Source: Eledone cirrhosa (taxonomy: Eukaryota). From it: a stretch of 64,000 bases of DNA. How positions within the stretch are numbered: position 1 is the first letter of the stretch; the number at the start of each line of letters is the position of its first letter. A program made the translations under genes and the position numbers. This document shows, piece by piece, positions 6,000-53,238 of this stretch. Under the pieces are notes generated by a model, which had not been told where the DNA came from, ran no database searches, and was given only the letters and a program-made list of their open reading frames with translations. The DNA lies in the NCBI GenBank assembly GCA_964016885.1, contig OZ024743.1, forward strand, positions 114,824,001 to 114,888,000. Direction: 5' to 3'.

Positions 6000-6008
6000 A
6001 GAGAGAGA

Positions 6009-6358
6009 GAAAAAGATGAAATCGAAAATGCAACTGGAGACTTATTTTAAAAAAAATATATATATTTATTTGGTTCCTTTAACGGTTTCGCAGTTCTTCT
6101 GCTTTTCAAAAGTAGAGTTGAGATGGAGGGTCTGTGGTTTTTCTCACATCAGATGTGAGAAAAACCACAGACCCTCCATCTCAACTCTACTTTTGAAAAG
6201 CAGAAGAACTGCGAAACCGTTAAAGGAACCAAATAAATATATATATTAAAAAAAAATAAGACTCCAGTTGCATTTTCGATTTCATCTTTTTTTCTTTATA
6301 CTTTCACTCGTGAAGGACACCTCGGTTATTTTTCATTTTGTAAAAAAACCCTCACTTT

Positions 6359-11167: not shown

Positions 11168-12143
11168 AATATATATATAAATATATATATATTGATATAT
11201 TAGAAAGTGAGGTTTTTTTCACAAAATGAAAAATAACCGAGGTGTCCTACACGAGTGAAAGTATAAAGAAAAAGAGATGAAATCGAAAATGCAACTGAAG
11301 TCTTATTTTTTTAAAAAATATATATATTTATTTGGTTCCTTTACCGGTTTCGCAGTTCTTCTGCTTTTCAAAAGGTGAGTTGAGATGGAGGGTCTGAGTT
11401 GAGATGTGAGAAAAACCACAGACCCTCCATCTCAACTCACCTTTTGAAAAGCAGAAGAACTGCGAAACCGGTAAAGGATCCAAATAAATATATATATTTT
11501 AAAAAAAAGTAAGACTTCAGTTGCATTTTCGATTTCATCTCTTTTTCTTTATATTGATATATATATATTTATATATATATATATATTTATATATATTTAT
11601 ATATATATATAAATATATATATATAAATATAAATTAATACAATAACAGAGATAGTTTAAAGCTAATCTCTAACTGGTAAACATCTCACTCAACAAACATT
11701 GGGTTATATTTTAATATAAACCTAATTTAAGTGTTTGGGGTGCTAACAATATGTATTATATGGAAAAGCCAGTTGTATTATTTTATGAGATATAATTAAA
11801 GTTAAAATATATCTCTCTTTCCAAACAATTGTTTCATTATAAGTTTTCTACAAATTCGGAGAATACTTCCAGTTTATGTAGAAGCCTAATATACATTCAT
11901 GTAAGAATATATTTAGGTGGGCGCTTATAAATCATCAGTGGAAGCCCATTAAACTTTGATATCAGAAAAACATTTCTTACCACAGTTAAAAAACGTGTCT
12001 GTTAAGTTGCTCCTTCCCGCATCGAATGACCGGCAAATTTGAAATTCCAGCAGTTTTTGACTGAGGAAGTATTATAGCGTCACTAAGCGGGAAGGGGGGA
12101 CAACTACGATCCACGAAAGGAGGAAAAAAAATAATATACATAT

Positions 12144-14019: not shown

Positions 14020-14165
14020 CTTTCAGGGATGCAGGTAAGCGTCCGTAGGTTCCCATATATATACATATAGTATATATCTATATATATAAAGTTGTAGTTC
14101 GTGTCTGTTTGTTTGTTTCTTTGTTTGTTCACGAACTCCTCCTATGGTTTATATATATATATAAG

Positions 14166-14628
14166 TATGTATACGTACATACATATATGTATACAGACGT
14201 ACAGTAGTATGTATATATATATATACATACATGGACACATTTATGTATGTACGTATGGGTTTACCGAACATTTATTAAAATGTTCTGTTTGTATGTAAAC
14301 AAACATCCCGAATTAAGCCGTACAGTGTTCGGCAACCATCGTTGCCCTTTTGTTCAACACTGACAAAAGAACGATGAACTAGTTTCTAGGTTATTAGCTA
14401 TCGTCAGCATAGTATACCTTTCTCGCAGATGATTGAACGTTTGAAAGTATATACTTTCCTTATGCATATTAACGGCTGAGCAGCCTAATTGGCATATCGA
14501 TTGAGCTAGTCGGCCGGGCGTACCGATAACGATAAATGGAAAAAATGAAATTTTATTTCTCACTCTTCGTAATTAAATATAAATATGTACACGTACATAC
14601 ATATATGTATATAGACGTACAGTAGTAT
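14166..14628 (-). mobile_element. Non-coding 418-bp HHR-containing unit with 45-bp terminal direct repeat (retrozyme-like)
   Basis: 14166-14210 repeated at 14584-14628 with 2 mismatches; HHR at 14371-14413; homologous to 30696-31176. Confidence 0.65.
14371..14413 (-). ncRNA. Type I hammerhead ribozyme
   Basis: Minus strand actatg-CTGACGA-tag(ctaataac)cta-GAAA-cta-GTT-catcgt. Confidence 0.75.
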
Positions 14629-14685
14629 TTATATATATATGTATATATATATACACATATATATATACATATATATTTATATATA

Positions 14686-16325: not shown

Positions 16326-16347
16326 TATATTTATATATATATATGTA

Positions 16348-18875
16348 TAAGAGGGTGTTAAAGTTTGCTTGAAGCATTGTGAAATGTGTAAAATACGTAG
16401 TTTAGAAAGCCACAACAATGCAGAGGGAAATTTCGAGGTAGGAAGTGAATGATAGATAGGAGAAATAGGAGAAAGTGAAAATTGAGAGAGACAAAGATGA
16501 AAACAAGACAAAGGTGGAAGGGTTACCGTAGTGGAGATTTAATCCCAATATTTCGGGCTCACGCCCATCAACGGGGGAAAGTTCCAAAGGGGGGGGGGGG
16601 GGGAACAGGCTAAGCGGAGAAAGTTGTGATGTCGTTAAAACAGGATTGCCGTTATGGGGAGAAAAATTATTTAAAATTTAAATGAGGGAAAGAATATATT
16701 TACACACACATATTCAGTCTATCATCTTCCTTCCGTAAACACGAAAACTCCCAAAGAAGGTAAAAAACAACTTAATGACTCGAAACAGCAAACTACCCAC
16801 CTACCACCTGGTTAAAACACATAAACAAGGACCCGATTTGAAAATCAGGCCCATTGTCTCTAGCGTGGAGGGCCCACTCTACAAAATATCGTGGCTGCTC
16901 TCCACACTACTGAAACCCATTCTACACACACTACCATCCCACGTCTGCAGCTCAAAGGAGGTCTTCGAGCGACTACACCATCTGGCGCCCAACACCAGAA
17001 AGGACAACGGTTATGCCTTCAGTCTTGATGTGGTCGCCCTTTATACCTCCGTACCAGCATCCCCAGCCGTCGACCTGTTGACCGAACGAGTCCGAGAATC
17101 TAACTTACACTGCTTTGGACTCACACACACGGACATCCACCAACTCCTCTCCTTCGTTGTGGATAATGCACTCTTCAATTTCCTCGGCCACACGTACAAA
17201 CAAATCTCTGGGCTACCTATGGGCTCTAGTCTGTCCGGCATACTTGCGATCTCGTACATGGACCACCTGGAACGCAAGGCACTCAATACCTGCAAACCCA
17301 ACGCCGTCGCCTTCTACTCCAGATACATTGATGACATCCTGATACTTACTTCTTCCCGGGAGATGGCGAATGAAATTCACCAAATCTTCAACGATACTGA
17401 CCATCACGTCGATTTCACCATCGAACACCCAGGAGAAGACGGGTCACTCGCCCTCCTCGACTTCCGTATCAACATCTCGGAAGAAGGAGACATAAACACC
17501 ATCTTCTACCGCAAAGCAGCGTGCAAGGACTTATTTGTGCATTACAACTCAGCCCTCCCCAACAATGCTAAGAGAGGCTATGTCCTAAATGAACTGACAC
17601 GGATCACTAACAGATGCAGCGACCCGATGGGTGGTCTCACCCATACCACGCAATTCCGTAATCTACTCAGGTCTAATGGATATCCCAAGCGACTGATTAA
17701 CGGAATTAGAGACCCCAGACCCAATAGACAGACACCCACTAGAAACTTAAATAAAAGCAGGTGCTTCTTTAAAATCCCCCACCTGAGTGAATATACCACG
17801 AACGCCATCCGCAGGGCCATACGGACGGAGGGACTTGACATACATTTGGCCCACACAGGACCTTCGCTGCGAAGATGCCTCTCCAACAAACCCGACGAGT
17901 CAGATGGGACGTGTTCCCTCAGCAACTGCCCGATACGGGGGGCAGATTGCCTACGCACCTATGTCGTATATAAGATTCAATGCGATAAATGTAACAAGTT
18001 TTACATAGGTAGCACCATCCGACCCCTACATGTTCGTATCAAGGAACATATCAACACCAACGCATCTTCCTTCCGTAAACACATCCTTAAATGCGGAAAC
18101 CCACAGGGTAGACCCTTGGTCACAGTCCTAGCGACTGAACGCAGCATCGGATCCTTAAGGATAAAGGAAGCACTTGTTATTAAGAACCTCAGACCCCCAC
18201 TTAACAACCGGGCTGAGAGAAATGAGCTGACATGGCTAACTTAACCATAGTGACCATTCACAGCCCTTAGGGCCTGCTATTTTCACACACACGTATATGC
18301 ATACCCATACGCATACACACACACATCTATATTTATACACGCACACATGTTTTACAACCTACCACCTTTCACACCCTTTGATTTCCAGCTTCTACAGCCC
18401 ACTATCTTACACACACACACACACACTCACACATATACACACTTACACATATACACACACAGTTACACACACATATATATTTACACACACATATTTTACG
18501 GCTTTCACACGCTAGCGCACCCTCTTGATTTAAACCATTTGGTCAGTAGCTTTTGCCACAGCCTATCACGCGCACGCGCATTCTTTCCCTCATTTAAATT
18601 TTAAATAATGTTTCTCCCCATAACGGCGTTCCTGTTTTAATGACATCACAACTCTCTCGGCTTAGCCTGTCCCCCCCCCCCTATTGGAACTTTCCCCCGT
18701 TGATGGGCGTGAGCCCGAAATATTGGGATTAAATCTCCACTACGGTAACCATTCCACCTTTGTCTTGCTTTCATCTTTGTCTCTCTCAATTTTCACTTTC
18801 TCCTATTTCTCCTATCTATCATTCACTTCCTACCTCGAGATTTCCCTCTGCATTGTTGTGGCTTTCTAAACTACG

Positions 18876-18881
<6 letters not shown>
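16348..18881 (+). mobile_element. Penelope-like element, 5'-truncated, with an inverted copy of its 3' end (pLTR) upstream
   Basis: 16390-16693 is the reverse complement of ~18582-18881; encloses an RT/GIY-YIG ORF; flanked by (TA)n. Confidence 0.92.
16775..18244 (+). CDS. PLE reverse transcriptase + GIY-YIG endonuclease (N-terminally truncated but open)
   Basis: KTHK..IRPIVS, SLDVVALYTSV, QISGLPMGSSLS, RYIDDI, LLDF, YRK; VVYKIQCDKCNKFYIGST.R.L..RIKEH, LRIKEALVI. Confidence 0.93.
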   Translation: MTRNSKLPTYHLVKTHKQGPDLKIRPIVSSVEGPLYKISWLLSTLLKPILHTLPSHVCSSKEVFERLHHLAPNTRKDNGYAFSLDVVALYTSVPASPAVDLLTERVRESNLHCFGLTHTDIHQLLSFVVDNALFNFLGHTYKQISGLPMGSSLSGILAISYMDHLERKALNTCKPNAVAFYSRYIDDILILTSSREMANEIHQIFNDTDHHVDFTIEHPGEDGSLALLDFRINISEEGDINTIFYRKAACKDLFVHYNSALPNNAKRGYVLNELTRITNRCSDPMGGLTHTTQFRNLLRSNGYPKRLINGIRDPRPNRQTPTRNLNKSRCFFKIPHLSEYTTNAIRRAIRTEGLDIHLAHTGPSLRRCLSNKPDESDGTCSLSNCPIRGADCLRTYVVYKIQCDKCNKFYIGSTIRPLHVRIKEHINTNASSFRKHILKCGNPQGRPLVTVLATERSIGSLRIKEALVIKNLRPPLNNRAERNELTWLT

Positions 18882-29658: not shown

Positions 29659-30040
29659 GAGACATATATATATAAGAGATATATATTATAAGAATAGAGG
29701 AGAAATATCTATGATCTAATATATTAGACTAGCTGAATGAGCAGGCCGGGTTACTGCTGTTCATATTCAGAATAGTAACCAATAAATATAAAGATATATT
29801 TCATTTCTTCATAATTATTTCAAAATTTTATATGAAAAAATGTCAAATTTGTAATGTTAATAAATCTATCAATCTTGAAGCACCTCGGGGAAAAGGATAT
29901 TCATTGTGTAAGATTTTGCTGGTGTCCAAATGAATAAATTGTTACTGCCTCCCACCAGTGTATAGATGCAGAAAACAAACAAAATTTAAATTTTGTTCTC
30001 AAATGTCTTGCTTTTTGCTTTTCTCCTCCATATATTTCTG

Positions 30041-30138
<98 letters not shown>

Positions 30139-30179
30139 TAAATAAAAGTCAAATGATTAAAATTTAGCTTCGTTTATTA

Positions 30180-30232
30180 CTGCTATATATATTTCAGTGA
30201 CAGCCATCTTTGGCTGTGACCTCTTCAGGCAG
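30180..30232 (-). ncRNA. Minimal hammerhead ribozyme in a palindrome arm
   Basis: Minus strand ctgc-CTGAAGA-ggtcacagcca(aaga)tggctgtcact-GAAA-tatat-ATA-gcag. Confidence 0.8.
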
Positions 30233-30429
30233 TTTGAAGAGGTCACAGCCAAAGATGGCTGTCACTGAAATATATATAGCAGTAATAAACGAAGCTAAAT
30301 TTTAATCATTTGACTTTTATTTAACTTTATTTTACACTACTCCGGAGTAACCAAACCAACCTGCGCACTTCGTCGAGTGCTCCAGCCTTCATACTGAGGT
30401 GTTGGTATACAACCAACATAAACTCAAAA

Positions 30430-30505
<76 letters not shown>

Positions 30506-30695
30506 CAGAAATATATGGAGGAGAAAGCAAAAAGCAAGATATTTGAAAAGAAATAATATTATAATATTATAATATTATAAAATTAAATCAAATTGTTTAG
30601 AACTACAAGTGAAGTCATTCTTTTCCTTTTTTCAAATATACCTAACTCTACCAAGGATTTCACACATTTTCTAATATATATATATATTAGAAAAT

Positions 30696-31176
30696 GTTAT
30701 TTGTTTTTATCGTCTCCGTTGAACCGGTACGTACTCACGCTCTATGCAAATTAGTCTGCCCACTACTAATTTTCATAGAAAAAGCATATAACGATATGTG
30801 CTTTTACGATTCTCTAGAAAGGCCGGAAGATAGGTAAATATTGCTGATGAGATGTAACAACATCGAAACTAGTCCAATATTCCTTGTCTGGCTTTCTGGA
30901 GAATAGAGGAAAGGTGTTTCCTCAAAAACCAGTATGACTCTAAAAACCGGTTTGTCTGTGTGTTTACATACAGAATAGCTGGACACTCACAGTAAAGTGA
31001 CCAGTGAAAAACTCGGTACATCTACATATGTACACGTGTGTGTATTCATATGCATACTAGTATTTCAGTATACATATGTGGATGTACATTTTTAACTTAA
31101 TTGTTTAAGCGTCAGTCATACAAAAGTGAGTTACAAACGAAACGAAATTTAATTTCGTTTCGTTATTTGTTTTTAT
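30696..31176 (+). mobile_element. Non-coding 466-bp HHR-containing unit with 15-bp terminal direct repeat (retrozyme-like)
   Basis: gttatttgtttttat at 30696-30710 and 31162-31176; canonical HHR at 30837-30881; several internal hairpins. Confidence 0.7.
30837..30881 (+). ncRNA. Type I hammerhead ribozyme, canonical core
   Basis: aatattg-CTGATGA-gatgt(aaca)acatc-GAAA-cta-GTC-caatatt; 7-bp stem I extendable to ~30811-30900. Confidence 0.9.
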
Positions 31177-31530
31177 ATATATATATATATATTAGAAAAT
31201 GTGTGAAATCCTTGGTAGAGTTAGGTATATTTGAAAAAAGGAAAAGAATGATTTCACTTGTAGTTCTAAACAATTTGATTAAATTTTATAATATTATAAT
31301 ATTACGAGTTGGTAGATCTAGTAAGTTCTTTGTTAAATTCGGTGGGAAGATTTTAAAGATTCCTGGTTAACTTTCTCGCATTTGTCGGTGGCGATTGTCA
31401 AACTGAGATCAGGTTGTGTTGTGACGTGTGACTCTAATTATAGGAGAGATTTGAATGAGTCTGGGGGTGGGGTGGAGGTGTTAATGAGTGTGGGAGTGAA
31501 GGAGTGTTGATGAATATTTAAAGGAATTAA

Positions 31531-31614: not shown

Positions 31615-33206
31615 AAATGGTGAATGGTGACAGCAAGATAATGGGTTTGGTTTTTTAAAGAGTGTTTAAGGAAGGCGCTGTAAAAGTGCCCTCCTGCTGG
31701 TTTCATTTCATCCAACCTAAAGAAACTGCTTACCAAGGCAAAATTTACGTCTAATAATGAAGCAATGCAAATTAAGAAATGTGGGGACGCTCGATGCGGA
31801 ACTTGTGAACACATTGAAGAGGGTGGGAAAATCTCCTTTAAAAACAACTAGTTTTTCAAAGTTAATGCAAACATGAATTGCAAAACTAAAAACTTGATTT
31901 ACTGTGCAACCTCCACACAATGTAAAGAATACTACATTGGTGAAACCGGAACGGGTCTATATGACACAGTTCGAGTATATAAACAACAAATTAAAGATCC
32001 CTCTGTCAGAAACACAACATGCAGTGAACACTTCGCAACATGCCGAAAGGGAAAATTCACAATTTTTCACTTCTTTAAGATATGGTCGGATAACGAACAT
32101 TCCGAAAATATAGAGAAGAATCCTTTATTAGAAAGTACAAACCACTACTAAACACAAAAAAATGATATTCCATCTTCAAATAATGGGATTCTGCCCACTC
32201 TCTCCCTCTTTTCTTTAAAAACATCTCATATTGAAAATAGAAAATTATCCAAATACAAGTTGATGACACCCGCACTTTCAAACATTCGATCGCTGAAGAG
32301 AAGAAAAACCCTCAGAGGTACACTAACATTTCATTAATTCCCTCTTCCCCACCCCAATGTATATGTGAACTTAAATACTTGTGTAGTTGTGTGTGTAGAT
32401 GTATCTGTAGGTGTACAGGTATGTGTATATGTATGTGTGCATGTGTGTGTGTATATATGAATATATGTGTATGTATGTGCGTGTGTAAGTGTATATGTAT
32501 GTGTGCATGTGCGTGTGTATGTATATATATATATATATGTGTGTGTGTGTTTATATGTGTGTTTATATGTATGTGCATGCATGCATGTATGTACATATAT
32601 GTGTAGATGTGTGTATTTGTGTATATATATGTAGGTGTATATATATATGTGTGTGTATATACATGTATATATATATATATATATGTATGTATATATGTGT
32701 ATGTATGTGTGTGCATGTGTTTGTGTGTGTGTATGTATGTAATGTATCTGGGCTGTAAGTATATTTACATATAGGGCAGTAAATAGGTGAGCTAGCCTCC
32801 CCCCTCGCACACACACACACACACCTCCTCTCCCAAACCAATATCAACAACATACAGTTCTGACAAATATTCCCAAATTATCTTTATTCTTCTCTTTGCT
32901 GTCATCCCTTTCTTATCAAAAGACATGTATCTTACACCTCATTAACCCCTCCCCCCTAACCGTCACCACCACCAGTCACACACCTAAGTTCATCTTTAAT
33001 ATAGAAAATTGATGAAGGTAATCTTTATAACTTTAAGATAGTTGATTAAGCTATGAGAAACGAATTTGAAAAACATCGTGCCATTATATTCATAAAGGTC
33101 ATTTATTGAAATGGAACCCGCAGGAGGGCACTTTTACCACATCTTTCTTGAATAGTCTTAAAAATACCCAACCTATTATCTTGCTGTCACCATTCACCAT
33201 TTTCTG
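31611..33206 (+). mobile_element. PLE GIY-YIG fragment (Neptune-like) with inverted end copy
   Basis: KKCGDARCGTCEH, NCKTKNLIYC...CKEYYIGETG; 31611-31710 inverted at ~33106-33206. Confidence 0.8.
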
Positions 33207-33276: not shown

Positions 33277-33408
33277 GTTATTAGGAGTATTCCAAAGCTT
33301 GCTAGAACAAGTTGTGAGGAAAGTTCTCAACATACGTTAAGGTGACTCGACAGGTTGGTATGGAATCTGTAGTGGAAACACGAACAAACGAGGAGTGTAA
33401 TCAAAGAA

Positions 33409-33886
<478 letters not shown>

Positions 33887-34221: not shown

Positions 34222-34226
<5 letters not shown>

Positions 34227-34697
34227 ATACTTGGGGAGGGTCATATTTGTGTAATATTGCCAGTTAATAACAGAACACACTCACTGTTTGGTTGGTTTTC
34301 GCTTATCGCTTCTGTGTCTTTTATATCGGTAATCTAACTTACTCGGTCCTCAATGTTGCCATTGACTGACCGACGGTCAAAAATAATACAGATACAATAT
34401 AGACACACACACATACATATAGTTTATCAATGATAAACTATATGTATGTGTTTGTGTCTATATTGTATCTGTATTATTTTTGACCGTCGGTCAGTCAATG
34501 GCAACATTGAGGACCGAGTAAGTTAGATTACCGATATAAAAGACACAGAAGCGAGAAGCGAAAACCAACCAAACAGTGAGTGTGTTCTGTTATTAATTCT
34601 GGCAATATTACACAAATATGACCCTCCCCAAGTATAACAGTATTTGTTTCGACACACGATTTCATATAAAAAACCTCGCAAAACTAATTCATCGCCG

Positions 34698-36478: not shown

Positions 36479-36581
<103 letters not shown>

Positions 36582-36742
36582 TGTAATAAACAACATAAGG
36601 TAATATTTCATTTACCAGTGGTTTCTTGAAAGCAAACACATTTTGCTTTCAATCATCAGAATGAAAAAACCCTGGTGTATTTATTGACATTGGATTTTAA
36701 AAGCCTTTTTAAAATCCAATGTTAATAAATACACCAGGATGT

Positions 36743-36803
36743 TTTCATTCTGATGATTGAAAGCAAAATTTGTTTGCTTTCAAGAAACCACTGGTAAATG
36801 AAA
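36743..36803 (+). ncRNA. Hammerhead ribozyme (mirror copy on the minus strand at 36606-36666)
   Basis: tttcatt-CTGATGA-ttgaaagcaaa(atttg)tttgctttcaa-GAAA-ccactg-GTA-aatgaaa. Confidence 0.85.
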
Positions 36804-37189
36804 TAATTAACTTATGTTGTTTATTACATAACTATTAAGCTATCTAGCCTACATAGAGCACTCCTTTTTCCTGGACCTTTCCGACGGAATAACTTCATTT
36901 ACACACATATATATATAATCAGGAAAGAAGAGTGACACGGTTTGCTATACAAAAAAGGTTTCTAATCTCATTGCTGACAATTGTTTCTCTGAACTGGTAG
37001 GTCTAGAGATCGCTACACCTAAGTAGACTATCTATAACAATAATCTGTTATCCCATATATATATTTGTGTGTGTGTATCATACACACACACATGAGTGTG
37101 TATGCAGATGTATAGTAATAAATATATATATAATTTTGTAATTTTAGAATCGTTTCCATTAAACGTTATTTCATTATTTTCATTTGCAG

Positions 37190-37254
37190 CTCTGATTTCC
37201 TTCAAACACTTATCGAAGCATATGACAGCAGTATTCCACCTGGATTTGACAAAG
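37190..37254 (+). CDS. Internal coding exon (N-terminal helix) of a GlyR/GABA/GluCl-type Cys-loop ligand-gated ion channel
   Basis: tttcatttgcAG acceptor and aaag|GTGAGT donor; reads SDFLQTLIEAYDSSIPPGFDK, resembling GlyR SDFLDKL...YDARIRP; phase-1 end joins the next exon in frame (G+AG=Glu). Confidence 0.85.
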
Positions 37255-37341
37255 GTGAGTCTCTTTTATGCGTATGGATGCGCTCACGTGTGTATGTGTG
37301 CCTCTGCATGTGTGCGTGTTTGTATGTGAATACACACACAG

Positions 37342-47632: not shown

Positions 47633-47850
47633 CAGTCGTGTGTCACTTCGCGGAGAAGTTTCCGTTAATTTATGTAAGGAAAAAACGTGAGTTTTTAGTT
47701 CAATTTTATATCATTGTGTAACTTGACCACCCGTCTGGACCTTCAGGTGGTGGGTCAACTCATTTTCGCCCCTTCAGGGGCGGAATATCCATTTAAAAAA
47801 TTTTTCTCCATCGAATCTTGGAAAAAATATTGTAAAATTTTGATTACGTT

Positions 47851-49767
47851 ATGAACGCTGCGTCCAACGATAATGGTGGTGGAGAGGCGGTAAGACTACA
47901 AAGCTCGCAGTCAACAACGTCTTCTTCACTAGATACTATAGAGATGGAAAGACAAAATGAAAATAAAAAAACGAATTCACATCCAAACAACACAAATGAC
48001 ACCAAACAGCTCAATGACAACAAAAATAACAGCAAAACCAATAATGATGATAAAAGCAACAATGATAACAACAACAAAGAAAAAAATAAAGACAACGCCA
48101 ATAACACCAGCATCAAAGACAACAACAACACCAAGGAAAATACGGATGATACCAACATCGGTGACAACAAGAATAACAACAAGAATAACAACAATAATGA
48201 CAACACCACCAATACGGATTCCACAAAGAAACCAAAAATCTCCTTTGCGGAGAAAGTTCAAAAGAAAGAACAATTGATATATCTCGACATAACAAATGCT
48301 GAACACCTTTTAAAGGACGCTAAGAGATATGTCACCTTCGAAAAAAATGGTGCTTTCAGCATCAATTCTCCTGTAGAAATTCGCAAGGAAACTGTTCTCA
48401 AAACGATAGTTTTTAGGACAGTTTCCAATTCTACCCGAAAACCAGTCCAATTGTCACAGAAAGATATTGAACTGGTTTTCAAAGATTCAATGAATGATAT
48501 TGCATTCATTCAAAGAAGCAAACTTTTTGGGAGTATTTCGGTACTGATGAAGGATCAATTGACGGCCCAAAATTACTCTGTGTCGCCAATTGTATCCAAC
48601 CTGTACACCTTTTTCCCTACATACATGGGAAAAAGGACACAAAAGATCAGAATCACAAGTGTCACACCAAAGGTGAACATATGGTGGATACTGTGCGGCT
48701 TCATCAATTTTGATGAAGACAGAATACTGTCAGTAGGCAAGTCCCCCAGAGATGTATTCAATGGGACTAGCATTGAAGTTCTGGTGCAAATGAGCCCAGA
48801 GCGAATAGCTATGATCCCACAGCGTGTACTCCTGGACGGACTTACCTACATAAACCTTTCGGTTGAGGGTAGGCGGCCTTCATGTTACCATTGCTTTAGC
48901 AGGGGTCACCTGAGGGCTTCCTGTCCTAAACTAATGAACCAAAAAAAGGCTCCTCTGCCAACACCCATCAAAACAACACAACCACCAACACCACCACTAC
49001 AACAACAACACCAACACACAAAAATAACCACAACAAACACAGTCCCACCCAACCTCACTCCACCTAAAACCACTGCAAAATCACATACAGACACAACAGC
49101 TCCCCAAGACATACCCCTCCCCAATCACACAGACGATACAACAGATGAGGCTATCTCGCCATCACCCAGTGAAGACGAGGGAGAACCCCATCGCTCGAAA
49201 AGAAAGAAAAGACATCACAAAAGCAAAAAACCAGCAAACACTACCACAAACATACAACCACCAACACAAATAACAAAAATATCAGAAACAAAACCCCCAC
49301 CTCCTGAAAACAAAATACCTACAACAAAACGAAAGCACACACAAGAACTACAGACAAAAACAAACACAACACAAGAAAATTACACTTACACTTACATAAA
49401 CACTGAAAACAAAACACTAATGGAGACCATTACGAACGACCCTTCGGTTTTCACCGAAGGGAAAACTTTCGCCCACTCTATAAAAAATAGCAAAAAAATG
49501 AACCTAAAACTGATTAGGGTCCCTATACAAACTTATAGGTCCCTAAAAGAAACATTTGAGAAGGATGTGGGGAATTCCTGCGTGAAAGCACTCAACCGCG
49601 TCCTTCTCAAATGCCTCCCCACCCCAGACACCCCCATCCCACCAGACCCCACCCCACCAAACATCTGCGTCCCCACCCCGCCGGAAACCACCACCCATCC
49701 AGACAACCCCTCCAACACCCCCATGGAAATCGTGCGGCCTGGTCCCCAGGAGGCGAAGGGTGAGTGA
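47851..49767 (+). CDS. LINE ORF1 protein (zinc knuckle, Asn-rich N-terminus, Pro/Thr/Lys-rich C-terminus)
   Basis: 638 aa open frame with CCHC knuckle CYHCFSRGHLRASC, directly upstream of ORF2. Confidence 0.88.
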   Translation: MNAASNDNGGGEAVRLQSSQSTTSSSLDTIEMERQNENKKTNSHPNNTNDTKQLNDNKNNSKTNNDDKSNNDNNNKEKNKDNANNTSIKDNNNTKENTDDTNIGDNKNNNKNNNNNDNTTNTDSTKKPKISFAEKVQKKEQLIYLDITNAEHLLKDAKRYVTFEKNGAFSINSPVEIRKETVLKTIVFRTVSNSTRKPVQLSQKDIELVFKDSMNDIAFIQRSKLFGSISVLMKDQLTAQNYSVSPIVSNLYTFFPTYMGKRTQKIRITSVTPKVNIWWILCGFINFDEDRILSVGKSPRDVFNGTSIEVLVQMSPERIAMIPQRVLLDGLTYINLSVEGRRPSCYHCFSRGHLRASCPKLMNQKKAPLPTPIKTTQPPTPPLQQQHQHTKITTTNTVPPNLTPPKTTAKSHTDTTAPQDIPLPNHTDDTTDEAISPSPSEDEGEPHRSKRKKRHHKSKKPANTTTNIQPPTQITKISETKPPPPENKIPTTKRKHTQELQTKTNTTQENYTYTYINTENKTLMETITNDPSVFTEGKTFAHSIKNSKKMNLKLIRVPIQTYRSLKETFEKDVGNSCVKALNRVLLKCLPTPDTPIPPDPTPPNICVPTPPETTTHPDNPSNTPMEIVRPGPQEAKGE

Positions 49768-49800
49768 TCTCTTTTCCTCTTTTAACTTTTCAGCACCAAC

Positions 49801-52800
49801 ATGGCCAATATAAGAGTTGGATGTGTGAACGTACGCGGCCTGGGGATGCCCTGGAAACAGGGCAAACTCTTAAACGACCTCAGGTCGCACAGTTTGGATG
49901 TGGTAGCCATTTGCGAGTCCAGGATCCACGGCGAGCGACAGCTGGCCCCCATCTTCGATGACTTTGAGATCTACGTATCTCTCTGTCAACCGGGGGGTGG
50001 GGGCGGAGTTGCCGTTTTGCTGCGGAAACACCTGGGCCTCGTAACACAGACGGTACATCTGGACCCGGAGGGTCGACTGGTGGTCCTAGACGTTGACGGT
50101 AGTGAAAGTGGAGCGTTCAGGCTGGTGGCCGCATATGCCCCATCCGGGACACCGCGGCCAGACTTCTTCAAACGTCTAGAGACTTTTCTGGGAACGTCCC
50201 GCTCCTTGCTTTTAGTGGGGGACTGGAATGGAATCCTAGATGCACGTTGGGACTATGTGGGAGCATGTCCCGATAAAGGGGGGTGTAACAGCCTCAAACA
50301 GTTAATCGACCGATTTGACCTGGCCGATAGATATCGACTAGATTTTCCGACTGCGCCACTGTGGACGTGGAGTAATCGTAGCGGAACATCTAGATCGTAC
50401 CTAGATAGGGTTCTAGTTAGAAATAAGGATAGGGACATGTTAAGCTGTCCACAAATGTTCATGGTTGCCTATTCAGATCACAAACTAGTGACCTGCATGG
50501 CCAACCTTGATAGAACCCATAGACAAGGACCCGGCTACTGGAAGCTGAACTTGTCGTTACCGACAAGCAAAGCCTACAGTAGACGGATTAGCACTTTAGT
50601 TAAACAGCACTTGACAGGGGCCATTGTCAACAACAGATGGTGGTACTCTCTCAAGAGGGCAGTTAGATTAGACTCGATAGTTTTTAGTAAAGAATTAGCG
50701 TTAGATAGAAATAGAACCGAGAAGGAACTGGTAGATAAAGTAGAAGAGGCTATTAGAAGTGGCAACGTAGCCAGCGTGCTAGCAACGAGAACGGCCTTGG
50801 ACCAGTTCTTCGACGCAAAGCACGAGGGCTGCGTTGTCAGAAGCAAAATACGTGCTCTGGGAAACGAGGGAGCCAAAGCTGTTAGCTGGGCCCGAGTGAC
50901 GGAGGCAAAAAGTGGCAACAAGTCCACGATTCGGTCTTTGAAGGACCAAAACGGACGCGTGATACGTGAGCCGAAGCAGATGTGTGCGGCTTTTCAGCGG
51001 CACTTTGCTCGGCTGTTCGGGGGGAGCGGCGCGCCGGGAGAGGCTATGGATTTCGGTCCATACCTCGACGGCCTACCGCGACTCTCGGACAGCGAGGCGA
51101 AGTTCTGCGAAAAGCCGATTTCAGCCACTGAGATAGGGGACGCGCTGAGCCAATGCGGCAAACGCAAATCTCCAGGTCTCGACGGTCTACCCTACGAATT
51201 TTACGTAGCAATGCCGGACTTATTCTCCGGTCTCCTGGAAGCGGTCTACTGCAACTGGCAACAGAACGGGAGAATTCCCAATTCTGTAACCGGGGGCGTG
51301 GTCACACTAATCAGGAAGGACGAGAATAAGGGGGATGACATAGGCAACTTCCGGCCCATAACTCTGCTAAACACAGAGTTACAGATTTTGGCCAAGGTGT
51401 TGGCAAAGAGGCTGGCGCTTGTCGTCGAGAACCTGGTGGGAGAAGCGCAGACATGCGCGATCCCGACCAGGTCCATACACGACAACCTCCACCTCATGCG
51501 ATACATCATAGAGAGGGTAGGGTGTAAACCCGGCTTCGGTGGGGCCATGATCAACTTGGATCAGTCTAAGGCTTTCGATAGGGTTGACCATCGTTACCTG
51601 GATGCGGTGCTCGAGGCGGCAGGCTTCGGACCCGTGTTCAGGGGCTGGATTGCTGCAATGCACAACAGCAACATCTGCTCAAGGGTCAAGGTGAACGGTT
51701 ACCTCTCGGAGCCGTTCCATATTACGCGATCCATTCGACAGGGATGCCCTCTCTCCTCCCTTCTGTACGTACTGACTCTCGAGCCACTACTGCGGAAGCT
51801 GGAGCTATTGCAGGGCATCCCTCTGGAACCGGGACTGCGGAAAGCGGCGTCGGCCTACGCCGACGACGTGACAGTAATGGTGTCGAGCGCCTCGCAAATC
51901 GAGAAAGTCGGCACCTTACTAAAGAAATACGAAAGTCTCACAGGAGCGAAGCTGAACCGGGACAAGTCCATCGGTTTGCAACTCGGATCGTGGAGAGGCA
52001 GACCGATGCCTTCCGATGGCGTCGTCGGACGCTGGACGGAAGGACCGGTAAAGCTGCTCGGGGTCTGGTTTGGTCCGGACCTCCAGGTGGAGAAGAACTG
52101 GAACGAAGTGACGGCCAAGGTGTTTGCACTCACCCAGAAGTGGGCCGAGTGCAAACTATCCTTGAAAGGTCGAGCGGAGGTGGCGAACACTTTTATAGCG
52201 TCCGCCATCTACTACCGCTTGACCGTCGTGCCTTGTCCAGCCAAAACGCTCGCCAAAATGGAGCGCGCCCTCTTCCGATTCCTTTGGAAGAGGCGGGCTC
52301 CTTTGGTAAGAAGATCCATCTGCTGCCAACACCCTTCTAACGGAGGGCTGGGGATGCCGTGGTTGACGATGCGCAAACACGCGCTCAGGCTGCGGCATCT
52401 CTACGTATTCCTCACCGGACAACCGGTGTGGGCCCCGTTCGTGAGGCGAGCCTTCCCACGACTCGTCTCACTGACCGAGCTGCAGTCCTGGGTCAAGCAG
52501 AGACCGAGGAAAATGGGCGACTGGCACATCGAATGTGCTCAGGCGCTCACAGCCCTCTGGCAGGCGGACCCGGCGATCAGTGGAGACTCCACTTCGTCAT
52601 TCTATAGAGGGTTGGTCCGCAGCAAGTGCGACGACGCGCTCGGTGAAACTCTGGGCGTGGAGGAAGATGAACTGGCCAGTCTGTTCGGTAGGACCTTCCG
52701 CCCGGGACCGATGGACAACTTCCAAAAGTCCCTGGCCTGGCAGTGCTACCGAGGAGCTCTACCAGTTCGAGACAAGCTCTACAGACATGGGCGCCCGGGC

Positions 52801-53238
52801 AGGGACCCTGCAAAAAAGATCTGTCCGAGGTGCGTGCGAGACGAAGAAACCGTCGCGCACGCATTCATACACTGCCCGGGCGTCACTGACCTGTGGGGAT
52901 ATGTAGAACGACTATTGTCGCGGGTGGGACCAATCCAGTTGACCACCGAGTCCATTGTCATGATCAAACCGCCACCCTCCTTCAAAAACGAAGGAGAGGC
53001 GGTTTTCCTTTGTGTGATAGCTATGGCGAAAGAGGTTGTATGGTGGACAAGGTTGAAAGGGCTGAGGTCAGACACCTTTCTCTCCGGCCAACAACTGATT
53101 CTTTTTTTCAAATACCACTTTGGAAGAAGAATCAGGATGGAGAGAGAGGTGCTGTACCCCAGCAAGTTTTATGAAAGGTGGGTGAAAGTGGCGAGAATGG
53201 CCCGAGTGAATGGGCCTTCTCTCTATATCAGCCTGTAG
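49801..53238 (+). CDS. LINE ORF2 polyprotein: APE endonuclease + reverse transcriptase + C-terminal Cys/His finger
   Basis: 1145 aa; NVRGL, GDWN, YLDRVLV, SDH (APE); KSPGLDG, NFRPITLLN, LDQSKAFDRV, QGCPLS, YADD (RT); CPRC..ETVAHAFIHC. Confidence 0.97.
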   Translation: MANIRVGCVNVRGLGMPWKQGKLLNDLRSHSLDVVAICESRIHGERQLAPIFDDFEIYVSLCQPGGGGGVAVLLRKHLGLVTQTVHLDPEGRLVVLDVDGSESGAFRLVAAYAPSGTPRPDFFKRLETFLGTSRSLLLVGDWNGILDARWDYVGACPDKGGCNSLKQLIDRFDLADRYRLDFPTAPLWTWSNRSGTSRSYLDRVLVRNKDRDMLSCPQMFMVAYSDHKLVTCMANLDRTHRQGPGYWKLNLSLPTSKAYSRRISTLVKQHLTGAIVNNRWWYSLKRAVRLDSIVFSKELALDRNRTEKELVDKVEEAIRSGNVASVLATRTALDQFFDAKHEGCVVRSKIRALGNEGAKAVSWARVTEAKSGNKSTIRSLKDQNGRVIREPKQMCAAFQRHFARLFGGSGAPGEAMDFGPYLDGLPRLSDSEAKFCEKPISATEIGDALSQCGKRKSPGLDGLPYEFYVAMPDLFSGLLEAVYCNWQQNGRIPNSVTGGVVTLIRKDENKGDDIGNFRPITLLNTELQILAKVLAKRLALVVENLVGEAQTCAIPTRSIHDNLHLMRYIIERVGCKPGFGGAMINLDQSKAFDRVDHRYLDAVLEAAGFGPVFRGWIAAMHNSNICSRVKVNGYLSEPFHITRSIRQGCPLSSLLYVLTLEPLLRKLELLQGIPLEPGLRKAASAYADDVTVMVSSASQIEKVGTLLKKYESLTGAKLNRDKSIGLQLGSWRGRPMPSDGVVGRWTEGPVKLLGVWFGPDLQVEKNWNEVTAKVFALTQKWAECKLSLKGRAEVANTFIASAIYYRLTVVPCPAKTLAKMERALFRFLWKRRAPLVRRSICCQHPSNGGLGMPWLTMRKHALRLRHLYVFLTGQPVWAPFVRRAFPRLVSLTELQSWVKQRPRKMGDWHIECAQALTALWQADPAISGDSTSSFYRGLVRSKCDDALGETLGVEEDELASLFGRTFRPGPMDNFQKSLAWQCYRGALPVRDKLYRHGRPGRDPAKKICPRCVRDEETVAHAFIHCPGVTDLWGYVERLLSRVGPIQLTTESIVMIKPPPSFKNEGEAVFLCVIAMAKEVVWWTRLKGLRSDTFLSGQQLILFFKYHFGRRIRMEREVLYPSKFYERWVKVARMARVNGPSLYISL

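What the first reader, a model, noticed from the sequence alone, without database searches (positions are those of the whole stretch)
30676..31202. Unit B: canonical HHR with a long stem I, hairpin-dense body and apparent target duplication
Seen: a perfect CUGAUGA/GAAA/GUC core; stem I extends with bulges from ~30811 (tctctagaaaggcc) to ~30900 (ggctttctggaga), unlike the 3-8 bp stems of the pLTR HHRs nearby. Further hairpins: aaaagcatat..atgtgctttt, gaggaaa..tttcctc, gtacatctacatatgta..tacatatgtggatgtac, aacgaaacgaaat..atttcgtttcgtt. The flank tatatattagaaaatgt occurs both before and after the unit. Inference: a highly structured RNA inserted by target-primed reverse transcription; the best candidate here for an efficient ribozyme.
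Basis: partly seen in the sequence, partly recalled or inferred. Interest (0 to 1): 0.7.

Follow-up and report, generated by a model that had tools for sequence, protein, structure and literature searches.

The report
Solo copy of Penelope-driven retrozyme
This is a lone copy of a 466-base non-coding repeat whose hammerhead motif occurs over 9,000 times in this animal genome and is predicted to cut RNA well only in pairs; the family's back-to-back arms with two fixed end points suggest it is likely pasted in by Penelope-type jumping-gene enzymes, probably from a circular RNA.

Summary
The core, long stem I, hairpins and flanking repeat are real. Unit B is one 466-nt monomer plus 15 nt of the next (30696-31176) of a young non-LTR retrozyme family: 9,345 exact hammerhead cores genome-wide, control 0, many in ~466-bp tandem arrays. 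In 62 sampled insertions, 97 of 103 3' ends fall at two sites ~70 nt apart, mostly against (TA)n. In 36 of 41 head-to-head insertions each arm uses a different site, never the same one. The two arms differ by ≤2% in 34 of 34 cases. This is the Penelope inverted-arm/tail signature, which a young Penelope family in this window also shows. 'Efficient ribozyme' is not supported: helix III is one pair plus a palindromic CUAG loop, and folding favours a double hammerhead (+0.4 against +7.4 kcal/mol per motif), so this solo copy is likely inert. The 24-bp duplication may be a target-site duplication, but it lies in a locally duplicated inverted flank, so fold-back explains it equally well. Cleavage, expression, circles and the partner enzyme are untested. 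This scan found the same pattern before on other DNA of this genome.

The parts
30696..31161 (+). One 466-nt retrozyme monomer (non-coding, multibranched fold)
   Evidence: Tandem period 463-470 in other loci; 1 difference from a unit in L046; z -8.8; longest stop-free frames short
31162..31176 (+). 15-nt terminal redundancy ending at 3' site B, fused to (TA)n
   Evidence: Identical to 30696-30710; 51 of 103 sampled 3' ends lie at site B; 1,172 forward-strand matches of the B junction genome-wide, control 0
30837..30881 (+). Type I hammerhead: stem I 7 bp, CUGAUGA, stem II 5 bp, GAAA, helix III of one pair plus palindromic CUAG; predicted cut after C30874
   Evidence: compensatory A-U/U-A pair in stem II in 12 of 34 copies; dimer fold favoured
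30810..30903 (+). Extended, bulged stem I
   Evidence: Pair probabilities; 98.9-99.6% of cells paired across 34 copies, one compensatory pair (helices 5-7)
31102..31107 (+). 3' site A, internal in this copy; the end point of the partner arm in other insertions
   Evidence: 46 of 103 sampled 3' ends; 984 forward-strand matches of the A junction genome-wide, control 0
31103..31176 (+). ~70-nt 'tail' between sites A and B, containing the 13-bp terminal hairpin 31136-31164
   Evidence: analogous to the Penelope tail (PMC11167929, PMC8557442)
30674..30697 (+). Left copy of the 24-bp direct repeat; its last 2 nt are shared with the first 2 nt of the unit
31179..31202 (+). Right copy of the 24-bp direct repeat (target TA tract plus 11 nt)
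30562..30675 (+). Local inverted duplicate of the right flank
   Evidence: 98.2% over 112 nt to 31193-31304; 90.5-97.4% to 11 other genomic copies; carries an A where 8 of the 9 other copies that begin at this end read G in register
31190..31525 (-). End of an older repeat family (Penelope-type ends, inferred) that provides the target TA tract
   Evidence: 3,271 candidates, best other copy 90%; loose TA ends at two places, 30640 and 30687
14150..14550 (-). Copy of a diverged sister retrozyme family with the same core and the same palindromic helix III, ending at the site-A equivalent against (TA)n
   Evidence: nhmmer E 2e-22
16345..18880 (+). Young Penelope-like element (RT plus GIY-YIG frame 16739-18244) with an inverted left arm carrying a ~44-nt tail; comparison and candidate enzyme source
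   Evidence: Pfam RVT_1 E 1.2e-11, GIY-YIG E 2.6e-4 below cut-off; 86 scored copies at 96-100%; end sites

Best explanation
Unit B is a single, one-armed copy of a young non-LTR retrozyme, a non-coding tandem repeat that is likely transcribed from multi-unit arrays, predicted to be cut into 466-nt units by paired hammerheads, and likely reverse-transcribed into (TA)n breaks by a Penelope-like enzyme, probably from a circle. Shown: the family, its arrays, two fixed 3' ends (sites A and B, ~70 nt apart), TA targets, one site per arm in head-to-head insertions, and near-identical arms. Inferred: a Penelope RT/GIY-YIG protein cuts both strands in (TA)n; each DNA end primes cDNA at one of the two internal sites of the same RNA variant; each cDNA runs for a variable length, often several rounds; the two 5'-truncated cDNAs are joined back to back. 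In this copy only the site-B arm was made: it ran one round plus 15 nt and joined target DNA at a 2-nt overlap. With one hammerhead and a helix III predicted to need a partner, it is likely a dead end.
For: Copy number: 3,152 GUC-type and 6,193 GUU-type exact cores, reversed-pattern control 0. Ends: 97 of 103 3' ends at A or B, 83 of the 103 followed directly by (TA)n; 36 of 41 clean inverted insertions are A+B, 0 are A+A or B+B. Genome-wide forward-strand junction counts are similar, 984 (A) and 1,172 (B). Same template: arms differ by ≤2% in 34 of 34 insertions (median 0.75%), against 11% of 1,239 cross-locus pairs. In L121 all 17 full units on both arms are identical and the nearest other locus differs at 3 sites. 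64 of 104 arms exceed one unit, and 5' ends are spread round the unit (3 of 106 within 5 nt of the cut site, 2.5 expected), as expected for a template with no end at the cut site. RNA-level selection: 99.2% of cells paired, 7 of 136 pairs with double changes. RNA passage: variants fixed within one insertion show A>G 24 against T>C 8 (p 0.007), while single-unit variants show 16 against 27. Penelope comparison: 32 of 33 terminal ends of a young Penelope family fall at two sites ~44 nt apart against (TA)n, one per arm in the 3 loci where both arms were in view. A Penelope protein cuts and extends both strands and starts at two internal RNA sites that bound the tail (PMC11167929).
Against: No sequence homology to any Penelope terminal repeat was found in 30 loci of one young family, 11 loci of the flanking family or the window, so the partner is unidentified. 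Three long arrays (L043, L068, L111) carry variants shared by some units (7 of 12, 10 of 42 and 8 of 14 substitutions), which one round-and-round pass over a single monomer circle does not explain alone. The A>G excess is not significant in the subset seen on both arms (11 against 7, p 0.48), and three A>G changes cluster in one insertion. Five of 41 inverted insertions have one arm ending elsewhere. Two thirds of the counted cores have GUU at the cut site, and the Penelope study found cleavage unnecessary for insertion in vitro, so uncut linear multimers could be the template. The sample is biased to intact cores in the first ~80 Mb of one contig.
Confidence: 0.8

Rival explanations
1. Same element and enzyme, but the template is a linear, uncut multi-unit transcript; the hammerhead and any circle are incidental to mobility.
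For: Shared variants inside long arrays; GUU at the cut site in 6,193 of 9,345 counted cores; monomer cleavage predicted poor; unprocessed RNA is the dominant Penelope substrate in vitro (PMC11167929).
Against: Arrays of identical units on both arms (L121 17 of 17; L123, L128 with one substitution each); core and palindromic helix III are kept in a diverged sister family; arms up to 7.4 kb would need very long transcripts.
Confidence: 0.3
2. Unit B is an efficient stand-alone ribozyme with a function at this locus.
For: Intact core with GUC; stem I internal loop and loop II align with the HH9 model; tertiary contacts, not modelled here, can rescue weak helices (established for full hammerheads, PMC6155905 passages).
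Against: Active monomer fold +7.4 kcal/mol; the free fold pairs core bases 30844-30846 with 30870-30872; axolotl motifs with the same one-pair-plus-palindromic-loop helix III cleave weakly as monomers (PMC7229834); the copy is one change from a family member, so shows no locus-specific conservation.
Confidence: 0.1
3. A satellite DNA spread at the DNA level (unequal crossover, extrachromosomal circles) or by a LINE-type enzyme, with no Penelope role.
For: Tandem arrays with some shared-variant structure; a LINE-type frame (RT plus APE endonuclease) lies at 49786-53238; Li et al. 2026 discuss local tandem amplification.
Against: DNA-level spread does not predict fixed, polar 3' ends, random 5' ends or a strict A+B rule; there is no poly(A) end; arms overlap in sequence, unlike LINE twin priming (recalled); compensatory pairs and the A>G bias point to RNA.
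Confidence: 0.07

Closest known systems
Metazoan non-LTR retrozymes (Cervera and de la Pena 2020, PMC7229834: passages, section 14 and Discussion read; Li et al. 2026, bioRxiv 10.64898/2026.07.22.740005: parts 1-3 of 5 read)
   Same: Type I hammerhead in each unit of low-GC non-coding tandem repeats; monomers to multimers; thousands of copies; coexistence with Penelope-like elements.
   Different: 466 nt is above the 170-400 nt RNAs studied in 2020 (within the 51-972 bp of 2026). No pLTR homology was found here. The head-to-head arms with two fixed ends are not described in the text read. Expression and circles are untested here.
Axolotl HHR_Amex1 and newt satellite 2 dimer-type hammerheads (PMC7229834 and PMC6155905, passages read)
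   Same: Helix III of a single pair capped by a palindromic tetraloop; predicted to work as a double hammerhead.
   Different: Occurs here in an apparently invertebrate genome, where the 2020 paper found mostly efficient monomers. Newt satellite 2 has an snRNA-type promoter (cited in PMC2220036, passage read); no significant match to this genome's U1 upstream elements was found.
Penelope-like elements, insertion signature (Craig et al. 2021, PMC8557442: passages; Frangieh et al. 2024, PMC11167929: parts 1-2 of 4)
   Same: 5'-truncated partial tandems, an inverted 5'-truncated arm, a tail at only one end, (TA)n targets, two internal start sites.
   Different: No RT or endonuclease gene; tail ~70 nt rather than 30-40 bp; hammerhead has full stems I and II rather than the minimal Penelope type; arms hold up to about 30 units.
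Rfam Hammerhead_HH9 (RF02275)
   Same: Type I topology, core, 6-bp stem I followed by an internal loop.
   Different: 38.9 bits, below the 52-bit cut-off; helix III loop deleted; part of a mobile repeat, not a conserved intronic single copy.

Membership tests
Non-LTR retrozyme | Type I hammerhead in each repeat unit | tested here: met
   139 of 142 full units match the core pattern
Non-LTR retrozyme | [quoted passage not shown] | tested here: met
   Period 463-470 bp, up to about 31 cores in a row; this copy itself is a monomer
Non-LTR retrozyme | Non-coding, low GC, no LTR/PBS/PPT | tested here: met
   36% GC (base counts); six-frame translation shows only short frames; no long terminal repeat, only a 15-nt redundancy. 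PBS/PPT were not searched for separately
Non-LTR retrozyme | Self-cleavage of the RNA | not testable with these tools
   Only folding predictions
Non-LTR retrozyme | Expressed as linear and circular unit-length RNA | not testable with these tools
   The tools gave contigs of runs of unrecorded kind only; see Tried and rejected
Non-LTR retrozyme | Penelope-like elements in the same genome | tested here: met
   RT plus GIY-YIG frame in the window; 86 scored copies at 96-100% identity
Penelope-mobilised element | Inverted 5'-truncated arm, tail at one end only, microsatellite target | tested here: met
   36 of 41 A+B, 0 same-site pairs; 83 of 103 ends at (TA)n; Penelope comparison
Penelope-mobilised element | Sequence homology to the pLTR of an autonomous partner | tested here: inconclusive
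   No hit in the two families and the window examined; most Penelope families of the genome were not examined
Autonomous Penelope-like element | Encodes RT and GIY-YIG endonuclease | tested here: not met
   No coding frame in the unit
Canonical monomer-active type I hammerhead | Stable helix III (two or more pairs plus a loop) | tested here: not met
   One pair plus CUAG; +7.4 kcal/mol for the active monomer fold
Newt satellite 2-type self-transcribing repeat | Internal snRNA-type promoter | tested here: inconclusive
   An octamer-like word at 30744-30751 is shared with the sister family, but none of 12 distinct U1 upstream regions has a full octamer and the best proximal-element match in unit B (15 of 20) was reached by 3 of 30 shuffles

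The most novel reading that the evidence does not exclude
A dimeric Penelope enzyme loads both ends of one (TA)n break onto one and the same A-to-I-edited RNA circle, at two fixed sites ~70 nt apart, and rolls round it from both at once. Retrozyme arrays would then be direct records of the Penelope inverted-arm and tail mechanism, with the ribozyme made deliberately dimer-dependent so that finished circles are not re-cut.
Probability: 0.35. Interest if true: 0.75.

Novelty: new member of a known kind. Interest (0 to 1): 0.52.

Why it matters
Penelope-driven mobilisation of animal retrozymes is proposed from co-occurrence and pLTR phylogeny in the papers read, and the origin of Penelope's inverted arm and one-sided tail is described there as unresolved. 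This family gives a small, young, non-coding substrate with a strict rule (one start site per arm, both arms from one RNA variant) that can be tested in vitro with a 466-nt RNA and an intact Penelope frame from the same genome. The dimer-dependent hammerhead offers a simple answer to why retrozyme circles might escape re-cleavage. The particular copy in this window is ordinary and likely inactive.

Tried and rejected
A DNA search of the genome with the whole unit found nothing, not even the window; the tool skips very common words, so this was uninformative and pattern searches replaced it. The first site-A pattern was mis-specified (46 matches) and was replaced. Reverse-strand counts include overlapping matches, so only forward counts are used. 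Sequencing runs: no RNA holder listed (6 rows, 3 studies, kind unrecorded). Run X4 holds one 495-nt contig that closes on itself over the unit, with 4 A>G and 1 T>C differences, and nothing of it was laid on the flanking repeat or the Penelope frame; a tandem DNA array gives the same contig and absence can be false, so it is not used as evidence. No empty allele could be read, since the tool skips the repeats at both junctions. Cut linear monomers as the usual template: 5' ends are not enriched at the cut site (3 of 106) or at the terminal hairpin (10 of 106, 7.1 expected). snRNA-type promoter: no significant match; the bacterial promoter scan is irrelevant and at chance level. Partner by homology: none found. 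Unique-sequence target duplications as a family trait: 0 of 58 by BLAST, 2 of 58 by exact words, both AT-rich. Rfam miRNA hits below cut-off reflect generic hairpins. Literature searches and word searches for 'inverted' or 'tail' in four retrozyme papers found no description of two-armed retrozyme insertions; figures, the supplement of PMC7229834 (its Fig. S9 shows the life cycle) and the preprint's supplements were not seen and could bear on this.

Full report
Observation. The hammerhead is type I: stem I 30837-30843 with 30875-30881, CUGAUGA 30844-30850, a 5-bp stem II, GAAA 30865-30868 and GUC 30872-30874. Stem I extends through bulges to 30810:30903. The region folds far better than shuffles (z -10.7; z -8.8 for the unit alone). 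Rfam HH9 matches at E 1.1e-7 but below its cut-off. A 15-nt repeat at 30696-30710 and 31162-31176 defines a 466-nt unit followed by the start of a second unit.

What it is. A DNA search returned nothing because common words are skipped. Exact pattern searches found 3,152 cores ending in GUC and 6,193 ending in GUU, with 0 for the reversed patterns, many spaced 463-470 bp apart. I fetched 32 of the 33 clusters among the first 100 listed GUC matches (one apparent duplicate dropped) and all 26 clusters among the first 100 GUU matches in 27 stretches. All lie in the first ~80 Mb of contig C1 and were chosen for an intact core. Units are about 88-100% identical to unit B, and unit B differs at one site from a unit in L046, so it is young. 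Across 34 units from different loci, 99.2% of cells of a 136-pair structure are paired and 7 pairs show double changes, including stem II; relatedness inflates this, but slid controls give 31-49%. A diverged sister family with the same core and the same palindromic helix III occurs at window 14150-14550 and in three fetched loci. These features fit non-LTR retrozymes (PMC7229834, passages, section 14 and Discussion; Li et al. 2026 preprint, parts 1-3 of 5).

How it inserts. The 59 stretches hold 62 groups of hits. Of 103 outward 3' ends, 46 fall at site A (unit position 400-416) and 51 at site B (position 472-481); 83 are followed directly by (TA)n. Of 41 clean head-to-head insertions (those touching a stretch edge or nested were left out), 36 have one A and one B arm, none has A+A or B+B, and 5 have one arm ending elsewhere. 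Genome-wide forward-strand junction counts are 984 for A and 1,172 for B. 5' ends are spread round the unit, with no excess at the cut site. The two arms of one insertion differ by ≤2% in 34 of 34 comparable cases, against 11% of 1,239 cross-locus pairs, so both copy one RNA variant. Penelope-like elements are described with an inverted 5'-truncated arm, a tail at only one end and microsatellite targets (PMC8557442, passages). A purified Penelope protein cuts and extends both strands and starts at two internal RNA sites that bound the tail (PMC11167929, parts 1-2 of 4). The window holds a young Penelope frame; in 30 loci of that family 32 of 33 terminal ends fall at two sites ~44 nt apart, one per arm in the 3 loci with both arms in view. 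No sequence link between unit B and a Penelope terminal repeat was found, so the partner is inferred from the signature only.

Template. L121 has 17 identical full units over both arms, and L123 and L128 have one substitution each, as expected from repeated copying of one circle. L043, L068 and L111 have variants shared among some units, which points to multimeric templates or later duplication. Following a lead from earlier scan notes, I tested for editing: variants fixed within an insertion are A>G 24, T>C 8 (p 0.007); on both arms 11 and 7 (not significant); single-unit variants 16 and 27. This is modest support for an edited RNA intermediate. A circle is likely but not shown.

Ribozyme strength. 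Helix III is one A-U pair closing the palindrome CUAG, the design described for axolotl HHR_Amex1, which cleaves weakly alone and well as a dimer (also PMC6155905 passages). The active monomer fold of unit B costs 7.4 kcal/mol; in four natural dimers two monomer folds cost 15.3-16.7 and the double hammerhead 0.4-1.8. Tertiary contacts are not modelled. A solo copy cannot release a unit-length RNA, so this copy is likely a dead end.

The flanks. The 24-bp direct repeat is exact, with 11 nt outside the TA tract and a 2-nt overlap with the unit's 5' end. The left flank 30562-30673 is a 98% inverted copy of the right flank and shares a base with it that differs from most other copies of that repeat, so it was copied locally. 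A second inverted pair (29992-30045 with 30501-30553, 92.6%) brackets the neighbouring insertion. The simplest history (inferred) is an older break in (TA)n repaired by fold-back of both ends, then insertion of unit B into the right TA tract. At a palindromic site a staggered cut and a short fold-back give the same 11 nt, so the duplication cannot be called a true TSD without an empty allele. Only 2 of 58 other insertions showed a short direct repeat and 2 showed inverted flanks.

Novelty. The element is a new member of a known class. The two-arm, two-site rule was not found in the retrozyme papers searched (PMC7761336 and PMC11722881 as passages only; supplements not seen). Earlier notes of this scan report the same pattern on other DNA of this genome, including what appears to be this family; none lies near this window. 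My counts were obtained before or independently of those notes, except the editing and promoter tests, which they prompted. The promoter test was inconclusive. The host is an animal genome of 3.0 Gb; earlier notes call it a cephalopod, which I did not test.

Noticed in passing
window 14150-14680 (-); L071, L119, L152: Diverged sister retrozyme family with the same core and palindromic helix III, whose copies end at the positions homologous to sites A and B.
   Followed up: partly
window 16345-18880: Young, 5'-truncated Penelope-like element with an open 501-aa RT plus GIY-YIG frame; relatives with stop-free frames up to 1,027 aa exist in the genome; two fixed 3' ends ~44 nt apart.
   Followed up: partly
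window 30135-30327, 33402-33730, 34223-34639, 36578-36832, 6006-6295, 11262-11553: Near-perfect palindromes beside (TA)n, several with hammerhead-like cores; they look like two-armed Penelope-type remnants.
   Followed up: no
window 29992-30045 with 30501-30553: Second locally inverted flank pair; with 30562-30673/31193-31304 it suggests double fold-back repair of one (TA)n break.
   Followed up: partly
genome-wide: Two thirds of counted cores have GUU rather than GUC at the predicted cut site, including the longest arrays seen; the effect on cleavage is unknown.
   Followed up: partly
window 30744-30751: Octamer-like word kept between the two retrozyme families; this genome's U1 genes lack a full octamer upstream but share a different element near -260 and another near -60.
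   Followed up: partly
window 31858-32148: Degenerate GIY-YIG remnant (Pfam E 0.0067) followed by a decayed hammerhead-like core near 32290.
   Followed up: no
window 47836-53238: Two long frames (643 and 1,150 aa); the second has endonuclease, RT and zinc-binding domains, a LINE-type element that looks intact.
   Followed up: no
window ~37190-37257 (+): Possible short exon with splice signals; if its gene spans 30.7 kb, unit B lies in sense orientation in an intron. Not verified.
   Followed up: no
L068:1498-1771; L067: L068's terminal unit has an internal deletion but still ends at site B; L067 holds two inverted insertions in a row.
   Followed up: no
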